From Enterobacteria phage vB_EcoM_IME281: DNA of 64,000 bases. This document shows, one piece after another, positions 1,956-54,912 of the stretch. The translations under genes and the position numbers were made by a program. Every line of letters starts with the position of its first letter. Position 1 is the first letter of the stretch. The stretch is from sequence record MH051913; one strand, given 5' to 3'. Under the pieces are notes generated by a model. The model saw nothing but the letters and a program-made list of their open reading frames with translations. It was not told the DNA's origin and did no database searches.

Positions 1956-3236
1956 TTATGCCTCGTAAATAATTGGAGGAAGTTTAACACCAAGCAGATA
2001 AGACATGTTACTCTGGCCTGCCATTAAATCCATATTAGTTGCGTCTATAACACGAGCTTCTTTATCATCTTTAGCAACGGTATACGGGTTTGCTGAAAGT
2101 GCATAACGAACCATCAGAGAAATAGCCGGTTGCAAACTATCAGGGTCTACAATAACTTTATAGGCGCCAACATGTTCTTGGTCGTCTAAATCCAGACCTT
2201 CGGTATACGGAGCATAGAAAATAGAACCAACTACTTCATTACCACCGTAATCTTCTTTAACGCCTACGATAACATAATCTAAAGGACTATTAACATCACA
2301 GAATACAGGCAATCCGTTAATCAAATAACCATAAGCAGTTTCTGGGAGCCAAGCTTCATCTTCAGGTTTGTGTTTCAACCAACCTGAACCAGCGAGCATC
2401 GCAGCAACACGACTAGATGCGACAACAAACGTACCTGAATAAGAAGTGGTTTTCTGAATTTCAGAATTCATCTCACAAACCATTTCGTATAATTTACGTG
2501 CAGATTCTGGAGCACTGTCATAAGACAAATCGACAATACCGTTATCAGACACACCAGTAACTTTATAGCGTTTAGATACAGTTATTAGAGACTGCAGAAC
2601 GTCTTTATTAATTTCATCAGCCATTACAGTGGCTAAAAGGTCTTCTAAGAACGCAGGGGCGTCGAAGCCATTAGATTCCATGTCTTGGGCTAGTTCTACA
2701 GTCAAAGCGGTTTTAAGCTTACGGGACTTAACAGGGGCGTTCCATTTATTAACCTGGAATACTGCATTGCTAATTTCAACATCACCTGCTTCGAATTTTT
2801 CTGTGTGAGCCGCATCAGGAACCAGACGACATGTTAATGACACTAAACCTTCTTGAAGAGCATCAGCCAATTCTGTGGCGCTAGTGGACGCGAGTGGGCT
2901 TGCTTTAAGAGCCTTATAAACCACATTCTGGTACTTGAAATATCCACCCTGAGCAATCGCCTGGGCCTTATCTGTGAGTTCTGGGATAGTTTCACGGTCT
3001 TTAGAACCAACTTCACCACCATAAGAGGCACCTGTCTGGAAACTAAATTCATTATCAGGGGTAAGATATTTGACACCATACAGTGCAGCAATAGGCTGGC
3101 TAGTACGTTGTTCGGCGATAATATCACGGTAAATCAATTTGGTTGTAGCACGGGTCAAAGCAACAAGATTAGGGCGACCCAATGAGTTGCTGGAAGTAGT
3201 TGTTGACTCGCGCAGTAATTCGTTAATCTTTGCCAT
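1956..3236 (-). CDS. 24: gp24 head vertex protein
   Basis: 426 aa; strong match to recalled T4 gp24 (MAKINELLRESTTT…VKSRKLKT…VELAQD…NGFDAP.FLEDLLAT.MADEINKD). Confidence 0.88.
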   Translation of the reverse strand: MAKINELLRESTTTSSNSLGRPNLVALTRATTKLIYRDIIAEQRTSQPIAALYGVKYLTPDNEFSFQTGASYGGEVGSKDRETIPELTDKAQAIAQGGYFKYQNVVYKALKASPLASTSATELADALQEGLVSLTCRLVPDAAHTEKFEAGDVEISNAVFQVNKWNAPVKSRKLKTALTVELAQDMESNGFDAPAFLEDLLATVMADEINKDVLQSLITVSKRYKVTGVSDNGIVDLSYDSAPESARKLYEMVCEMNSEIQKTTSYSGTFVVASSRVAAMLAGSGWLKHKPEDEAWLPETAYGYLINGLPVFCDVNSPLDYVIVGVKEDYGGNEVVGSIFYAPYTEGLDLDDQEHVGAYKVIVDPDSLQPAISLMVRYALSANPYTVAKDDKEARVIDATNMDLMAGQSNMSYLLGVKLPPIIYEA

Positions 3237-3263
3237 TGCGCTTTCCTTATTGAGGGTATATGT

Positions 3264-3271
3264 TTATTTAT
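3264..3271 (-). promoter_or_regulatory. T4-type late promoter box TATAAATA upstream of gp24
   Basis: Plus-strand TATTTATA about 28 nt upstream of the gp24 start. Confidence 0.55.
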
Positions 3272-3278
3272 AAAAGTT

Positions 3279-3322
3279 GTTTACAGCAAGATTCTCACAT
3301 GTTACTATAGACCTATCAAAAC
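3279..3322 (+). promoter_or_regulatory. Early promoter/stem-loop cassette (PeSL-like): GTTTAC -35, TACTATAG -10, ACCTATCAA, flanking inverted repeat
   Basis: tgtttaca…catgttactatagacctatcaaaacatg; IR catgtt/aacatg around the -10. Confidence 0.6.
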
Positions 3323-3337
3323 ATGAGGAGATTAAAA

Positions 3338-3604
3338 ATGAACAAGTTAAACTTTATTCGTACTACTCTTTCCGCTCTTGATAAAGACATCAAAGCTCTG
3401 GTAGAAAAATTCGGTACCAATCCTAACGGTAATGCAGTTAATGCATTGGTTAAGAAATACGAAGCCCTGGCTTATGAAACTGATTTCTGGTGGAACGGTG
3501 AATATTCTACCCATACCAAAGACAAATCCGGTAACTGGCTGAAAATCCAAGAAAATCGTATTGACTTCCGTGATATCATAAACCGTCGAGTTAAGATTGC
3601 ATAG
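3338..3604 (+). CDS. Small hypothetical early protein inserted between gp24 and gp23 on the opposite strand
   Basis: ORF with GAGGAG SD 7 nt upstream of the ATG at 3338; preceded by PeSL-like promoter, followed by hairpin. Confidence 0.5.
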   Translation: MNKLNFIRTTLSALDKDIKALVEKFGTNPNGNAVNALVKKYEALAYETDFWWNGEYSTHTKDKSGNWLKIQENRIDFRDIINRRVKIA

Positions 3605-38978: not shown

Positions 38979-39533
38979 ATGAAACTTTTAAAATATTTGA
39001 GTTGGATTCTGTTGGTCCCACTAGATTTTATCTCTATGGTTCTAGCCGTTATCCTTGCGCCTTTTGTGGTTCCTTTTCATAATAAAAAGACTGGTAAATT
39101 GCCATACGGTTTTGATTGGATGATGACATACGATAATCCAATTGACGGCGATAAAGGTCATATTAAACGTTGGGCTAAAATCAGGAAAATGCCTGGTGGT
39201 GTTTATCTCCAGAGAGTAGCTTGGCTATGGCGAAATAAAGCTTATAACTTTGCTTATCATAAACTAGGCCGTGATTGTAGCTCGGAATTCCATTATCGTG
39301 GTAATCCTGACGTAGAATCAGGTTCTCCTGATAAAGCTCACCATGGTTGGTTGTGGATGTGGAATGATGACGCCTGGGGTGTATTTGCTTCAGTTCCTTA
39401 TCTTAAGGTCGGCGGAATCACATTTTACCTTCGCGTGTACTGTGGCTGGAAGCTTAAGAGTCTTTTGTCTCGTAAAATCCCTAAAGCTATGTTGGCCTTC
39501 CACGTGAACCCGTTCCGGTTCTACAAGAACTGA
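38979..39533 (+). CDS. Late-promoter-driven protein with N-terminal transmembrane anchor, Trp-rich C-terminal domain
   Basis: 184 aa; N-terminal hydrophobic helix LSWILLVPLDFISMVLAVILAPFVVPF. Confidence 0.5.
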   Translation: MKLLKYLSWILLVPLDFISMVLAVILAPFVVPFHNKKTGKLPYGFDWMMTYDNPIDGDKGHIKRWAKIRKMPGGVYLQRVAWLWRNKAYNFAYHKLGRDCSSEFHYRGNPDVESGSPDKAHHGWLWMWNDDAWGVFASVPYLKVGGITFYLRVYCGWKLKSLLSRKIPKAMLAFHVNPFRFYKN

Positions 39534-51199: not shown

Positions 51200-51247
51200 G
51201 TTTACATCTCCTGTAGACGTGGTACTATAGACCTATCAACTACAGGA
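51200..51247 (+). promoter_or_regulatory. PeSL-like early promoter cassette (stem ctcctgtag/ctacaggag)
   Basis: gtttacatctcctgtagacgtggtactatagacctatcaactacaggag. Confidence 0.65.
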
Positions 51248-51256
51248 GATTACAAA

Positions 51257-51715
51257 ATGTCAGAAATTAATTCAGAAGTATTCATCCGCCGCAACAAATT
51301 ACGTCGTCAGTTCGAAACCGAATTTCGTGAACTTAACGCGTCCATCAAAAAAGCCGCCATTAAGAGCGGTGTCCCAGCTTTCTTTATTAAGTACTCTAAT
51401 CACTTGTTGGACCGTGCTATCCAACGTGAAATTGACGAAAAATATGTTTTCTCTTTGTTCAAGAAGCTCCATAACCATGTTAAAGAAATCCATGAATTTT
51501 TAATCCAGGAGCCTCTTCCTGACATAGAATCTGAAATTGTCCCAGGTAAAGTGTATCGTCCACTGCGTCTCGAGATTACTGATAAAACCTTATGGTTGGG
51601 TATGACCGTAGATCGTAAACATCCTGATAAAGGATATTCATTAAAATGTCGTATGGCATTTGTTAACTCTAAACGTTTAGAAGGTAAAACCAGCACGAAA
51701 GTAATCTATCTTTAA
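51257..51715 (+). CDS. regB: RegB-like endoribonuclease
   Basis: 152 aa; EVFIRRNKLRR.FE.EFR…LLDRAIQREIDE.YVF…RLEITD…LWLG…CRMA matches recalled T4 RegB. Confidence 0.75.
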   Translation: MSEINSEVFIRRNKLRRQFETEFRELNASIKKAAIKSGVPAFFIKYSNHLLDRAIQREIDEKYVFSLFKKLHNHVKEIHEFLIQEPLPDIESEIVPGKVYRPLRLEITDKTLWLGMTVDRKHPDKGYSLKCRMAFVNSKRLEGKTSTKVIYL

Positions 51716-51727
51716 TAATGAGGTCTC

Positions 51728-52267
51728 ATGAAAAAAGTATTAGCCACTTTACTATTGACAGTTAGTATGTCTGCCTATAGCGTAGAGCCTACTTTCAGTA
51801 ATGAACAACTCGATAATTTACATTATGCGTATGCTTTCGGTGAACAATACCAAAAGTCGGGAAAGTTCAAAGAAAACCCTAATCAAAAAGGATTAGGATA
51901 TATAATGGCCGGATTATTATGGCAGGAATCATCTGCTGGAATTAATCAAGGTTTAAATAAAGATAAGCACCATGCTTATGGCATGTTCCAAAATTACTTG
52001 CCTACGTTAAGAAGTCGTGTTAAACAGGTAGGTTGGAAGATGTCAGACAAAGAAATAATCCGTATGGTCCAAAAACGACAGAACAGTGCCTCTTGGGCCT
52101 ACATTGAGCTGTCTTATTGGATTGATGTTCACAAAGGTGACCTGAGAAAAGCGATTGCTTCTTATAATGCGGGCTGGAATGTCAAAGCAGGCAGTAAATA
52201 TGCTTCCGAAGTTCTAGAAAAGGCCAATTACCTAAAATCTAAAAAGATGTTTGAGGCGGTGTATTAA
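51728..52267 (+). CDS. Secreted protein with lytic-transglycosylase-like motifs
   Basis: Signal peptide MKKVLATLLLTVSMSAYS; ES…GMFQ…AYNAG motif order. Confidence 0.5.
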   Translation: MKKVLATLLLTVSMSAYSVEPTFSNEQLDNLHYAYAFGEQYQKSGKFKENPNQKGLGYIMAGLLWQESSAGINQGLNKDKHHAYGMFQNYLPTLRSRVKQVGWKMSDKEIIRMVQKRQNSASWAYIELSYWIDVHKGDLRKAIASYNAGWNVKAGSKYASEVLEKANYLKSKKMFEAVY

Positions 52268-52624
52268 ATGATTAAGCAGATGACTATAGCGCTTATGTTG
52301 ATTGCTCCGGGAGTATTAGCGTCACAAGTTGATGATAGTAATAATTCAATTGTCGAGTATGCTACCCGTACAGCAAAAGATTATTGTCATCCGAGTAATA
52401 CTGAATGCATTATCGAATTCAGTTCAAAAATCACAGCTGCTTTTAAAGATGGCCAGAATGACGTAGAGCATCGCCGAATGAAAGAGAAAACTCTTTCTAA
52501 AAGATACGAGCAACGTCTAAACGTTACTGAATGTATTCCATCTGATAAAAAGTACAAAGAAATGTGCGCGTCTATGGTAGACAGACTCGTTGATTCATAC
52601 AATCGAGGATTAAATTCTAAATGA
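52268..52624 (+). CDS. Secreted Cys-containing small protein
   Basis: Signal-peptide-like MIKQMTIALMLIAPGVLAS; four Cys. Confidence 0.45.
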   Translation: MIKQMTIALMLIAPGVLASQVDDSNNSIVEYATRTAKDYCHPSNTECIIEFSSKITAAFKDGQNDVEHRRMKEKTLSKRYEQRLNVTECIPSDKKYKEMCASMVDRLVDSYNRGLNSK

Positions 52625-53100
52625 TTATTGATTATATTAAGGGCGATATTGTCGCCCTATTTCTCCAAGGTAATATTATTGCACACGGGTGCAACTGTTT
52701 CCACACAATGGGTTCTGGCGTAGCCGGACAGTTGGCAAAGGCTTATCCAAAAGTTTTAGAAATAGATAAAACCTCTACTGAATATGGTTCTCGTGATAAA
52801 TTAGGCAATATGTCTATTGTTTTTAAACATAAGCCTACAGGTTTTGGCATGTGCTATAACTTGTATACGCAATACGAACCAGGCCCTAATCTTGATTATG
52901 GCGCTTTAGTAAATTGTATGATAGAATTAAATCTACAAGCAGAAACCCTTTTGTTTAAACCAAGAATTTATATCCCTCGCATTGGTTGTGGTATTGCAGG
53001 TGGAGATTGGGAAAAGGTTTCTAAATTAATCAACATGTTTACTCCTGACATTGATCTGATAGTGGTGGATTATGAAAGCCCATTACCCGCATCCGTTTGA
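52621..53100 (+). CDS. Macro-domain protein, Poa1p-like (candidate ADP-ribose / ADP-ribose-1''-phosphate processing enzyme)
   Basis: 159 aa; IIAHGCNCFHTMGSGVAGQLAKAYPK resembles the Poa1p signature [21 protein letters not shown]..YPKA (from memory). Confidence 0.55.
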   Translation: MIIDYIKGDIVALFLQGNIIAHGCNCFHTMGSGVAGQLAKAYPKVLEIDKTSTEYGSRDKLGNMSIVFKHKPTGFGMCYNLYTQYEPGPNLDYGALVNCMIELNLQAETLLFKPRIYIPRIGCGIAGGDWEKVSKLINMFTPDIDLIVVDYESPLPASV

Positions 53101-54246: not shown

Positions 54247-54525
54247 ATGGACCTAAATTCAAAGATTTTAATTCTAGCGTTCGCTGTGGCTATTTCTTAC
54301 ATTGTTCTTTCGCCTATCATGGATGATGCGGCTTACAAAAGAGAGATAGAAGTTGTAGCAGCGACGTATAATGCTAATAATAAAGAATGCCCTAATAAAA
54401 ATGGAATGGATTTAATTAAAGCACATTATATGCTTTCCATTACCTCGCCTATACAGAGGAATTGGGTTGAATATAATTTTAACGACGTGTTCTATTCTTA
54501 TTGTCGTAAGCTTAAAAAGCTATAA
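54247..54525 (+). CDS. Small protein with N-terminal transmembrane segment
   Basis: 92 aa; ILILAFAVAISYIVLSPI. Confidence 0.45.
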   Translation: MDLNSKILILAFAVAISYIVLSPIMDDAAYKREIEVVAATYNANNKECPNKNGMDLIKAHYMLSITSPIQRNWVEYNFNDVFYSYCRKLKKL

Positions 54526-54618: not shown

Positions 54619-54912
54619 ATGGGTATTTTCCGTACAGTGGCTTGTATCCTTATGATTGGATGTTTAAGCCCAACATCTTCACTAGCAAACAAATCCGACC
54701 CTAAATTGATGGACGCCTTTGCTAGTAGTGCGATGCCAGTTTATGCGCAAATGAGTAAACCTAGTGTAAAGGCCTCCGAAGACTACTGGGCTTATGTAAC
54801 TGCTTCTTGGAAAATTTCAAATTGCAATACAATAGAGTCTTGCTCGATTGAAGGTCGGGCTATCGGAGAACGATACGCTAAACTAATGAAGGTAGATGAT
54901 GAAATTCAATGA
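54619..54912 (+). CDS. Secreted protein or lipoprotein
   Basis: 97 aa; N-terminal MGIFRTVACILMIGC|LSPTSS signal/lipobox-like. Confidence 0.45.
   Translation: MGIFRTVACILMIGCLSPTSSLANKSDPKLMDAFASSAMPVYAQMSKPSVKASEDYWAYVTASWKISNCNTIESCSIEGRAIGERYAKLMKVDDEIQ

What the first reader, a model, noticed from the sequence alone, without database searches (positions are those of the whole stretch)
51728..52624. Two consecutive signal-peptide proteins after regB, one with lytic-transglycosylase-like motifs
The 179-aa protein has a cleavable-looking signal peptide and the motif order ES…GMFQ…AYNAG typical of soluble lytic transglycosylase domains. The next gene encodes a 118-aa Cys-containing secreted protein. 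Periplasm-targeted early phage proteins are candidates for superinfection exclusion, cell-wall remodelling or lysis timing.
Basis: partly seen in the sequence, partly recalled or inferred. Interest (0 to 1): 0.45.

Follow-up and report, generated by a model that had tools for sequence, protein, structure and literature searches.

The report
T4-type vs.1–vs exported gene pair
These two genes are the already catalogued T4-family genes vs.1 (a secreted look-alike of bacterial cell-wall-cutting enzymes) and vs (listed everywhere as a modifier of the host's valyl-tRNA synthetase); the odd part is that vs carries every sequence mark of a secreted, disulfide-bonded protein and travels with vs.1, which does not fit a job inside the cell.

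Summary
Window 51728-52267 and 52268-52624 are back-to-back ORFs (TAAATG junction), both with Sec-type signal peptides. The window is a JS98-like T4-type phage (95.8% DNA identity), and the ORFs are the annotated genes vs.1 and vs.

**Vs.1** belongs to the SLT/GH23 lysozyme-like fold. E67-S, G85-M-F-Q88 and Y146-N-A-G149 are invariant in 36 relatives, 31 of 36 hit Pfam SLT, and the top structural matches are MltD and Slt.

**Vs** is labelled "valyl-tRNA synthetase modifier" (Pfam PF26829).
- 57 of 60 full-length family members have an export signal, and two lineages have a lipoprotein box.
- The four mature-region cysteines are almost the only conserved residues.
- A Vs gene sits within 8 nt of the Vs.1 stop in 52 of 69 loci, and nearby in 8 more.

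My best reading is an early, translationally coupled periplasmic module: a lytic transglycosylase plus a small disulfide-stapled partner. The cytoplasmic ValRS role of Vs remains unreconciled.

The genes are ordinary. The localisation paradox is a testable lead.

The parts
51201..51228 (+). Promoter-like site upstream of regB (TTTACA, 16 nt, TG-TACTAT). It is the likely early promoter of a regB-vs.1-vs-tk.4 transcript.
   Evidence: Consensus scan. The number of such sites in the region is not above the shuffle expectation, so this is weak evidence. No terminator-like site lies on the + strand between regB and tk.4.
51257..51715 (+). regB endoribonuclease gene (context; the upstream neighbour named in the finding).
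   Evidence: Pfam REGB_T4 E 2.2e-69 and PHROG 1323 E 2.6e-72.
51728..52267 (+). vs.1: 179-aa precursor of an exported SLT/GH23-type (lytic transglycosylase-like) protein.
   Evidence: PHROG 600 E 2.1e-67. 99% identical to JS10 Vs.1. Pfam SLT 17.0 bits for this protein, below the 21.3-bit cutoff, but 31 of 36 relatives hit at E<=0.01. AF2 model pLDDT 88.6. Top Foldseek hits are MltD, a GH23 chitinase and Slt.
51728..51781 (+). Predicted Sec signal peptide of Vs.1 (residues 1-18, cleavage AYS|VE).
   Evidence: Heuristic and conservation of signal features across 36 relatives. pLDDT is about 60 for residues 1-20 against above 90 for the body.
51926..51928 (+). Codon of Glu67, the predicted catalytic acid (W-Q-E-S-S-A-G).
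   Evidence: Invariant in A1. It aligns to the RES motif of g-type lysozyme in the profile-versus-PDB alignment and to QES of E. coli Slt70 in a short, non-significant hhalign match. It is kept in the Vi01, HY02 and Aeromonas phage 65 homologues.
52268..52624 (+). vs: 118-aa precursor of a small four-helix, four-Cys protein of the PF26829 'ValRS_modifier' family.
   Evidence: PHROG 1256 E 3.2e-34. 99% identical to the Bp7 protein named 'valyl-tRNA synthetase modifier'. 45.8% identical to T4 Vs. AF2 model pLDDT 78.7 with helices 23-39, 45-67, 73-89 and 94-115.
52268..52321 (+). Predicted Sec signal peptide of Vs (residues 1-18, cleavage VLA|SQ).
   Evidence: Heuristic. Residues 1-21 have pLDDT below 50. 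57 of 60 full-length family members pass the filter, and two lineages have a lipobox instead.
52385..52567 (+). Span holding the four conserved Cys codons: C40 at 52385-87, C47 at 52406-08, C89 at 52532-34, C100 at 52565-67. I predict two helix-hairpin disulfides.
   Evidence: Invariant in A2. C47 and C100 are invariant and C40 nearly invariant in the divergent alignment A3; C89 is kept by every sequence, though A3 does not list its column. 58 of 60 members have exactly 4 mature-region Cys. Each pair flanks an inter-helix loop in the model. The disulfide bonding itself is inferred.
52621..53100 (+). tk.4 homologue (macro domain). Context only: it overlaps the vs stop and probably belongs to the same transcript.
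   Evidence: Pfam Macro E 1.2e-7. T4 Tk.4 was described as the anti-DarT2 factor AdfM in preprint 10.1101/2025.11.20.689424.

Best explanation
The two ORFs are the JS98-type orthologues of T4 vs.1 and vs. They form one conserved, translationally coupled early module whose products are both exported through Sec.

Vs.1 (mature about 18.6 kDa, pI about 9.5) is a soluble periplasmic GH23/SLT-type enzyme. It most likely cleaves the glycan strands of the host sacculus with Glu67 as the single acid catalyst, that is, as a lytic transglycosylase.

Vs (mature about 11.6 kDa) is a four-helix protein stapled by two disulfides. It reaches the periplasm, or the outer membrane as a lipoprotein in some lineages. 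There it most likely binds or tunes Vs.1 or its substrate, in the way T4 Spackle tunes the gp5 lysozyme.

The module is dispensable in rich medium but pays off under slow growth.

Shown: gene identity, motifs, fold class, signal-peptide features, Cys conservation, gene linkage. Inferred: actual export and cleavage, disulfides, enzymatic activity, any Vs-Vs.1 contact, and the physiological role.
For: Identity. 95.8% DNA identity to phage dhaeg and 95.5% to JS98, whose records annotate regB, vs.1, vs and tk.4. PHROG 600 and PHROG 1256 hits.

Vs.1 fold and motifs.
- E67, S69, G85, Q88, Y146, N147 and G149 are invariant in 36 relatives down to 42% identity.
- 31 of 36 relatives hit Pfam SLT, best E 1.3e-7.
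- The profile aligns WQESSAG and SYNAG onto the RES and AYNAG motifs of g-type lysozyme.
- Foldseek's top 16 hits are MltD, a GH23 chitinase and Slt, with probability 0.87-1.0 and TM about 0.41-0.53.
- Homologues in Ackermannviridae and Felixounavirus keep both the signal peptide and the motifs.

Export.
- Signal features are conserved while the signal sequence drifts.
- Only 6 of 135 window ORFs pass the same filter.
- 57 of 60 Vs family members pass, and two lineages carry LSGC/VSC lipoboxes.
- The Vs leader is unstructured in the AF2 model.
- Independent annotators flagged secretion signals on the Acinetobacter phage Lazarus Vs.1 and on the next ORF, which I show is a Vs homologue.

Disulfides. 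Four Cys are almost the only conserved mature residues across the family. Their spacing varies (Cx5-11C and Cx8-10C).

Coupling.
- A Vs homologue starts -8 to +7 nt from the Vs.1 stop in 52 of 69 loci.
- It lies 471-1216 nt downstream in 8 more.
- Three further loci have an unrecognised ORF with a signal peptide and 4-5 Cys at that position.
- SLT followed by ValRS_modifier persists in lineages that lack regB.

Fitness (T4 HIDEN-SEQ). vs log2FC -2.19 (adjusted p 0) and vs.1 -0.87 (p 0.0055, adjusted 0.155) in M9 glucose versus LB. In the LB control of that comparison (Data S8), both already have about 10-fold fewer insertions than their neighbours.
Against: - Classical T4 work (my own knowledge; the originals are not held) says the vs product binds cytoplasmic ValRS and changes it in infected cells. 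A periplasmic protein cannot do that.
- Signal peptides were judged by my own heuristic, not by SignalP, and no cleavage data exist.
- The window's Vs.1 scores below Pfam's SLT cutoff (17.0 versus 21.3 bits). Foldseek E-values are only about 1e-2. The PDB sequence profile hit has E 0.22.
- Nothing tests a Vs-Vs.1 contact. Gene order in T4-type genomes is broadly conserved, so adjacency alone is weak evidence.
- Vs.1 occurs without a neighbouring Vs in some Aeromonas-type, Ackermannviridae and Felixounavirus genomes.
- The HIDEN-SEQ effect on vs.1 can be explained by polarity on vs. The minimal-medium phenotype of vs also fits a role in aminoacylation.
- Vs has no sequence or fold relative of known function.
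Confidence: 0.5

Rival explanations
1. Classical reading. Vs is what its name says: a small phage protein that stays in the cytoplasm, at least in part, binds host valyl-tRNA synthetase and alters its properties. This helps translation when valine or charged tRNA-Val is limiting. Its hydrophobic N-terminus is a weak, slow or unused export signal. Vs.1 is an unrelated neighbour, and the linkage only reflects conserved gene order.
For: - Family name and annotation (PHROG 1256, PF26829 'ValRS_modifier').
- T4 Vs is listed as binding ValRS, with Muller & Marchin 1975/1977 cited in PMC8076793.
- The T4 vs knockout is specifically impaired in minimal medium, where amino acids must be synthesised.
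- Insertions in vs.1 could be polar on vs.
Against: - The export signal is kept in 57 of 60 family members, and lipobox variants have no meaning for a cytoplasmic protein.
- Four invariant Cys with variable spacing are the family's main conserved feature. That fits oxidised disulfides, not a cytoplasmic helical binder.
- The family extends to Acinetobacter phages, whose hosts I would expect (own inference, not checked here) to have a divergent ValRS, yet almost no surface residues are conserved.
- N-terminally His-tagged full-length T4 Vs was insoluble in E. coli.
- From my own memory, the tau factor was about 10-11 kDa. That fits the processed form (11.05 kDa) better than the precursor (13.06 kDa).
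Confidence: 0.3
2. Lysis-clock reading. Vs.1 is a secreted auxiliary muralytic enzyme that would weaken the wall too early. Vs is its stoichiometric periplasmic inhibitor, made by coupled translation. Together they adjust lysis timing or lysis inhibition alongside the nearby rI and rI.1 genes.
For: - Coupled translation of the enzyme and a small exported partner.
- rI.1-like and rI-like genes lie 1.6-2 kb downstream.
- In Acinetobacter phage Lazarus, Vs.1, a Vs-like ORF, two more signal-peptide ORFs and rI are contiguous.
- SLT, ValRS_modifier, TK and Antiholin keep this order in distant contigs.
- Precedent from my own knowledge: T4 Spackle is a periplasmic inhibitor of the gp5 lysozyme. The T4 record annotates it as 'spackle periplasmic'.
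Against: - Vs.1 exists without Vs in several phage families.
- No rapid-lysis phenotype is reported for vs or vs.1.
- T4 already has gp e, t, rI and rIII for lysis control (my own knowledge).
Confidence: 0.15
3. Exclusion reading. The exported pair alters the sacculus or periplasm soon after infection, so that superinfecting phages or exogenous lysozyme-like attack fail.
For: - Early-type promoter context and periplasmic targeting.
- T4 is known to protect itself through periplasmic and membrane proteins (Sp, Imm; my own knowledge and the annotation).
Against: - No data link vs or vs.1 to exclusion.
- A wall-cutting enzyme would be expected to help, not hinder, incoming phage.
- The measured phenotype depends on nutrients in single-phage competition, not on superinfection.
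Confidence: 0.05

Closest known systems
Bacteriophage T4 Vs.1 (NP_049725) and its orthologues (PHROG 600)
   Same: Orthologous. About 67% identity to T4-type Vs.1, with the same position after regB, the same length, signal-like N-terminus and ES / GMFQN / SYN(A/S)G motifs. The SLT similarity is already published.
   Different: Nothing of substance; this is a JS98-lineage copy. No member of the family has been characterised biochemically in anything I could find.
Bacteriophage T4 Vs, 'valyl-tRNA synthetase modifier' (NP_049724; Pfam PF26829 ValRS_modifier)
   Same: Orthologous. 45.8% identity, the same position after vs.1, the same four Cys and the same C-terminal SMVDRLVDSYNRGL block. T4 Vs also starts with a textbook leader, MTKILVLCIGLISFSASASA|D.
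   Different: None structurally. The difference lies between the annotated function (cytoplasmic ValRS binding) and what the sequence predicts (exported, disulfide-bonded). That applies to T4 Vs as much as to this copy.
Family 1 lytic transglycosylases / GH23 (E. coli Slt70, MltD, MltE; Pfam SLT PF01464) and goose-type lysozymes
   Same: Lysozyme-like helical fold, a catalytic Glu in an E-S motif at a helix end, followed by G-x-x-Q and (A/S)-Y-N-x-G. Periplasmic location.
   Different: Very divergent: below the Pfam cutoff for this protein, 13-19% identity to solved structures, TM about 0.5. It is a minimal single domain of about 160 aa with an extra conserved N-terminal helix (F23..Q27..N30..A34-Y35..G38). 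It is phage-encoded, soluble and made early. Whether it yields 1,6-anhydro products (transglycosylase) or hydrolyses (lysozyme) is untested; no conserved second acidic residue follows E67, though E127 is invariant.
T4 Spackle (Sp, gp61.3) with the gp5 tail lysozyme
   Same: A functional analogy only. Spackle is a small, signal-peptide-bearing, helical, Cys-containing periplasmic T4 early protein that acts on a phage muralytic enzyme (my own knowledge; annotated 'spackle periplasmic').
   Different: No detectable sequence or fold relationship to Vs. Spackle's target is on the incoming virion and is not encoded next to it. Inhibition by Vs is not shown.
Exported phage muralytic enzymes (SAR endolysins such as P1 Lyz or phage 21 R; signal-peptide endolysins)
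   Same: Phage-encoded wall-cutting enzymes that cross the inner membrane through Sec without a holin (my own knowledge).
   Different: Those are late lysis genes in lysis cassettes. SAR domains are long, weakly hydrophobic and uncleaved. Vs.1 has a short, typical cleavable leader, sits in an early region, is non-essential, and T4-type phages have a separate endolysin.

Membership tests
Pfam SLT (PF01464) / GH23 family 1 lytic transglycosylases | Sequence match to the SLT profile above the curated cutoff | tested here: inconclusive
   The window protein scores 17.0 bits, E 0.0043, below the 21.3-bit cutoff. However, 31 of 36 aligned relatives match at E<=0.01, best 1.3e-7, and 25 of 100 database relatives carry a precomputed PF01464 hit.
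Pfam SLT (PF01464) / GH23 family 1 lytic transglycosylases | Catalytic Glu in an E-S motif, followed in order by G-(L/M)-(M/F)-Q and (A/S)-Y-N-x-G (motifs as I recall them from the literature on family 1 enzymes) | tested here: met
   E67-S68, G85-M-F-Q88 and S145-Y-N-A-G149 are present. E67, G85, Q88, Y146, N147 and G149 are invariant in 36 sequences. They are kept in the Vi01, HY02 and phage 65 homologues. E67 aligns to the RES motif of g-type lysozyme.
Pfam SLT (PF01464) / GH23 family 1 lytic transglycosylases | Lysozyme-like alpha-helical fold | tested here: met
   AF2 model pLDDT 88.6. Foldseek's best 16 PDB hits are all MltD, Slt or a GH23 chitinase, with probability 0.87-1.00, but E is only 0.015-0.4 and TM 0.41-0.53. 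The fold class is supported; close similarity is not.
Pfam SLT (PF01464) / GH23 family 1 lytic transglycosylases | Non-hydrolytic cleavage of MurNAc-GlcNAc bonds giving 1,6-anhydroMurNAc | not testable with these tools
   Needs purified mature protein, sacculi and LC-MS of the products.
Sec/SPase I secretory proteins | Positively charged n-region, uncharged hydrophobic core of 8-14 residues, small residues at -3/-1 | tested here: met
   My own heuristic passes both proteins. All 36 Vs.1 and all 26 Vs relatives show the same features, as do 57 of 60 full-length PF26829 members. SignalP was not available.
Sec/SPase I secretory proteins | Actual translocation and leader cleavage | not testable with these tools
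   Needs fractionation, N-terminal mass spectrometry or PhoA fusions. Indirect hint only: from my own memory the tau factor is 10-11 kDa, and the mature T4 Vs is 11.05 kDa against a 13.06 kDa precursor.
PF26829 ValRS_modifier (T4 Vs family) | Sequence membership | tested here: met
   PHROG 1256 E 3.2e-34. All close relatives carry PF26829. 45.8% identity to T4 Vs over the full length. The local Pfam copy lacks this newer model.
PF26829 ValRS_modifier (T4 Vs family) | Binding to and modification of host valyl-tRNA synthetase | not testable with these tools
The original papers tying the vs locus to this ORF are not in the library.
Proteinaceous lysozyme / transglycosylase inhibitors (Spackle, Ivy, MliC/PliC, LprI) | Sequence or fold relationship to a known inhibitor family | tested here: not met

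The most novel reading that the evidence does not exclude
The 'valyl-tRNA synthetase modifier' family (T4 Vs, PF26829) acts primarily in the periplasm, not the cytoplasm. It would be a Sec-exported, DsbA-oxidised four-helix protein that is the dedicated partner (inhibitor, activator or targeting factor) of the co-translated lytic transglycosylase Vs.1.

Under this reading, the 50-year-old ValRS-modifier label is one of three things: attached to the wrong ORF of the rI-e interval, a reflection of binding that happens only after cell breakage, or a minor side activity of unexported precursor.
Probability: 0.3. Interest if true: 0.7.

Novelty: already known. Interest (0 to 1): 0.4.

Why it matters
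As genes, these are routine. They are annotated in hundreds of T4-type genomes, and the SLT similarity of vs.1 has been in print since 2003-2006.

What could matter is the mismatch I found for vs. Why T4 modifies host valyl-tRNA synthetase has been open since the 1960s, and a 2025 transposon screen again singled out vs as the strongest minimal-medium fitness gene of T4 "of unknown biological role". If Vs is exported and works with a wall-cutting enzyme, that question needs reframing. The vs.1-vs pair would then be a widespread, uncharacterised early cell-wall module of large virulent phages; Vs.1 homologues occur in 2,075 phage records across three phage groups (Straboviridae, Ackermannviridae and Felixounavirus).

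If Vs is instead shown to be cytoplasmic, its conserved leader and cysteines need another explanation, such as regulated or dual localisation.

Either outcome is reachable with simple experiments.

Tried and rejected
1. **Vs as a known fold or family.**
   - PDB sequence searches with two profiles found nothing below E 0.06.
   - Foldseek against PDB gave nothing below E 2.8.
   - Pfam on 25 diverse members gave only scattered single chance hits.
   - My recollection that Vs might resemble the four-Cys LprI/DUF1311 lysozyme-inhibitor family found no support there.
2. **Vs related to T4 Spackle.** hhalign probability 1.8%. Rejected as homology and kept only as an analogy.
3. **Wider relatives of Vs.** An exhaustive HMMER search of 1.84 billion representatives found only 8 clusters. 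A profile search with the divergent alignment found 61 proteins, all PF26829 and all about 100-124 aa. None carries an informative source name or a second Pfam domain, and in the two contexts I looked up, both genes sit in T4-like gene neighbourhoods.
4. **Vs.1 profile versus the E. coli Slt70 catalytic domain.** hhalign aligned only the QES motif and was not significant. This is uninformative because the template was a single sequence.
5. **AlphaFold-database fold search.** The library was not available.
6. **Literature.**
   - The original vs/tau papers and the 2003 T4 genome review are not held.
   - Several keyword searches returned nothing on Vs localisation.
   - One search on the 'vs.N' gene names returned only clinical papers.
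7. **Zinc site instead of disulfides.** I consider this unlikely because the Cys-Cys spacing varies (Cx5-11C and Cx8-10C) and there are no CxxC knuckles. I could not measure distances because model coordinates are not exposed.
Full report
**What is there**

The window region 51728-52624 holds two + strand ORFs.
- The first runs 51728-52267 (179 aa) and the second 52268-52624 (118 aa).
- Its TAA stop is immediately followed by the ATG of the second.
- The stop of the second overlaps the ATG of a macro-domain gene at 52621.
- Upstream lies regB (Pfam REGB_T4, E 2.2e-69). It is preceded by a T4-early-like promoter match, TTTACA-16-TG-TACTAT, at 51201-51228.
- No terminator-like site lies on the + strand before the macro gene.

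The 2-kb stretch is 95.8% identical to Escherichia phage dhaeg and 95.5% identical to JS98. Those records annotate the same four genes as regB, vs.1, vs and tk.4. The two proteins are 99% identical to JS10 "Vs.1 conserved hypothetical protein" and Bp7 "valyl-tRNA synthetase modifier". They hit PHROG 600 (unknown function, E 2e-67) and PHROG 1256 (valyl tRNA synthetase modifier, E 3e-34). T4 has the same order regB, vs.1, vs, tk.4 ... tk, rI.1, rI. The objects are therefore known genes.

Both N-termini have lysines, an uncharged hydrophobic core and a small-residue -3/-1 site. A crude filter of my own passes only 6 of 135 ORFs of 60 aa or more in the window. Those six include these two neighbours and the rI-like gene at 54619.

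The conservation argument is stronger. The leader sequences drift freely among relatives, yet the leader features are kept in all 36 Vs.1 and all 26 Vs sequences aligned. SignalP was not available, so export is a prediction.

**Vs.1**

These residues are invariant across 36 relatives down to 42% identity.
- The window protein alone is below Pfam's SLT cutoff (17.0 versus 21.3 bits). However, 31 of 36 relatives match SLT at E<=0.01, best 1.3e-7.
- A family profile aligns WQESSAG and SYNAG onto the RES and AYNAG motifs of fish goose-type lysozymes, at a weak E of 0.22.
- The AlphaFold model is confident (pLDDT 88.6). Its best 16 Foldseek hits in the PDB are MltD, a GH23 chitinase and Slt, with probability 0.87-1.0, E 0.015-0.4 and TM 0.41-0.53.
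- No conserved second carboxylate follows E67, although E127 is invariant. I therefore favour a lytic transglycosylase over a hydrolase, but this is inference.
- tblastn finds Vs.1 homologues in 2,075 phage records. These include Ackermannviridae (Vi01_097c) and Felixounavirus (HY02 gp003, directly after rIIA/rIIB). Both keep a leader and the motifs.

None of this is new.
- Nolan et al. 2006 (PMC1524935) reported the marginal but conserved SLT match of vs.1 and cited earlier PSI-BLAST results.
- GenBank records call it "Vs.1 conserved transglycosylase SLT domain protein" (Aeromonas phage 65).
- The Acinetobacter phage Lazarus record calls it [quoted passage not shown].

**Vs**

The model is a four-helix protein (helices 23-39, 45-67, 73-89, 94-115) with an unstructured leader (pLDDT below 50 for residues 1-21). 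C40/C47 and C89/C100 each flank an inter-helix loop.

T4 Vs has the same build, starting MTKILVLCIGLISFSASASA|DTSY.

I widened the family in three ways:
- an exhaustive profile search of 1.84 billion representatives, which found only 8 clusters;
- hmmsearch of ORFs in 69 loci carrying Vs.1;
- a profile search with a divergent alignment, which found 61 proteins, all PF26829.

Across 56 distinct sequences, almost the only conserved mature positions are the four Cys, one Gly and a C-terminal Y..G-L. Of 60 full-length members, 57 pass the leader filter; the three exceptions look like mis-called starts. Of the same 60, 58 have exactly four mature-region Cys. Two lineages replace the signal-peptidase-I site by a lipobox, for example MKKLFVLLIVFALSGC. 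That only makes sense for an exported protein. The Cys spacing varies (Cx5-11C and Cx8-10C), which fits disulfide staples rather than a metal site.

Vs has no detectable relative of known function by sequence or fold. It is not related to T4 Spackle.

**Linkage**

In 69 IMG/VR loci holding a Vs.1 homologue (25-99% identity):

| Situation | Loci |
|---|---|
| Vs homologue starts -8 to +7 nt from the Vs.1 stop | 52 |
| Vs homologue 471-1216 nt downstream | 8 |
| Unrecognised 107-118 aa ORF with leader and 4-5 Cys at that position | 3 |
| Nothing comparable | 6 |

(All.)

The ORF after Vs.1 in Acinetobacter phage Lazarus was annotated only as having a secretion signal. It is a Vs homologue (17.7 bits). 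In distant metagenomic lineages that lack regB, the order SLT, (0-1 gene), ValRS_modifier..., TK, Antiholin is kept.

In every context I examined, Vs travels with Vs.1, whereas Vs.1 can occur alone. Gene order is broadly conserved in T4-type genomes, so this is suggestive rather than proof.

**Functional data from the literature**

- A T4 transposon screen (preprint 10.1101/2025.11.20.689424) classes vs and vs.1 as non-essential in LB.
- In M9 glucose versus LB, vs is the most depleted gene (log2FC -2.19, adjusted p 0), and a clean knockout plaques poorly on M9.
- In the same comparison vs.1 is mildly depleted (-0.87, p 0.0055, adjusted 0.155).
- In the LB control of that comparison (Data S8), both genes already have about 10-fold fewer insertions (26.6 and 22.6) than regB (179), vs.3 (652) or tk.4 (290).
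- This could mean a shared function, or polarity of vs.1 insertions on vs.
- Full-length His-tagged T4 Vs was insoluble in E. coli (PMC8076793). That is expected for a leader-bearing disulfide protein made in the cytoplasm, but it is not specific.

**Interpretation**

My best-supported reading (about 0.5) is that vs.1-vs is an early, translationally coupled module encoding two exported proteins. One is a periplasmic GH23-type wall-cutting enzyme. The other is a small disulfide-stapled partner that probably tunes it. The module gives a conditional fitness benefit.

The main rival (about 0.3) is the classical view that Vs acts in the cytoplasm on ValRS and only happens to sit beside vs.1. The minimal-medium phenotype fits that view equally well.

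The sequence evidence for export of Vs is hard to dismiss, so the two views conflict. From memory, the tau factor purified in the 1970s was about 10-11 kDa. That matches processed T4 Vs (11.05 kDa) better than the precursor (13.06 kDa), which deepens the puzzle rather than solving it. I could not read the papers that tied the vs locus to this ORF. Nothing in the searchable library mentions a leader on Vs.

**Verdict**

Its structural interpretation is supported but already known. It missed that the second gene is vs.

The genes are ordinary members of known families, so I rate novelty as "already known". I give a moderate interest score only for the unreconciled localisation of Vs and its tight coupling to Vs.1, which a few simple experiments could settle.

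Noticed in passing
window 51245-51248 (upstream of regB, 51257-51715): The Shine-Dalgarno region of regB contains GGAG, the motif that RegB itself cleaves according to the T4 record's annotation. It lies 9 nt before the ATG, which is consistent with self-regulation. The vs.1 and vs ribosome sites read GAGG instead.
   Followed up: no
window 52621-53100 (+): A tk.4 homologue with a macro domain (Pfam E 1.2e-7). Its ATG overlaps the vs stop (ATGA). A 2025 preprint names T4 Tk.4 'AdfM', an anti-DarT2 ADP-ribose-removing counter-defence factor.
   Followed up: partly
window 54247-54525 and 54619-54912 (+): An rI.1-like ORF (N-terminal membrane segment, 2 Cys) and an rI-like lysis-inhibition ORF (signal/SAR-like N-terminus) lie 1.6-2 kb downstream of vs. 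The rI.1 and rI names rest on gene order in T4 and N-terminal features, not on a homology search. In Acinetobacter phage Lazarus, Vs.1, the Vs-like ORF, two further signal-peptide ORFs and rI are contiguous. This hints at a cluster of envelope-directed genes.
   Followed up: partly
L002:2956-3573 (Salmonella phage Vi01) and L003:3001-3549 (Escherichia phage HY02): Vs.1-type exported SLT proteins also occur in Ackermannviridae and Felixounavirus. In HY02 the gene lies directly after rIIA/rIIB. No adjacent Vs-like gene is present.
   Followed up: partly
L032-L034 and L052 (IMG/VR T4-like contigs), about 3049-3375 (2495-2821 in L033); also protein P0132: One Vs lineage has a lipoprotein signal (…ALSGC|K…) instead of a signal-peptidase-I site. 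This predicts a lipid-anchored form.
   Followed up: partly
window 38979-39533 (+, 184 aa): Another ORF whose N-terminus passes my crude signal-peptide or membrane-anchor filter (MKLLKYLSWILLVPLDFISMVLA…). I did not identify it.
   Followed up: no
protein P0130 (3694 aa), from the representative search with the Vs profile: A very long protein matched the Vs profile in 17 short stretches (profile positions 15-54, E 8e-10). This is probably a repetitive or low-complexity artefact. I did not inspect it.
   Followed up: no
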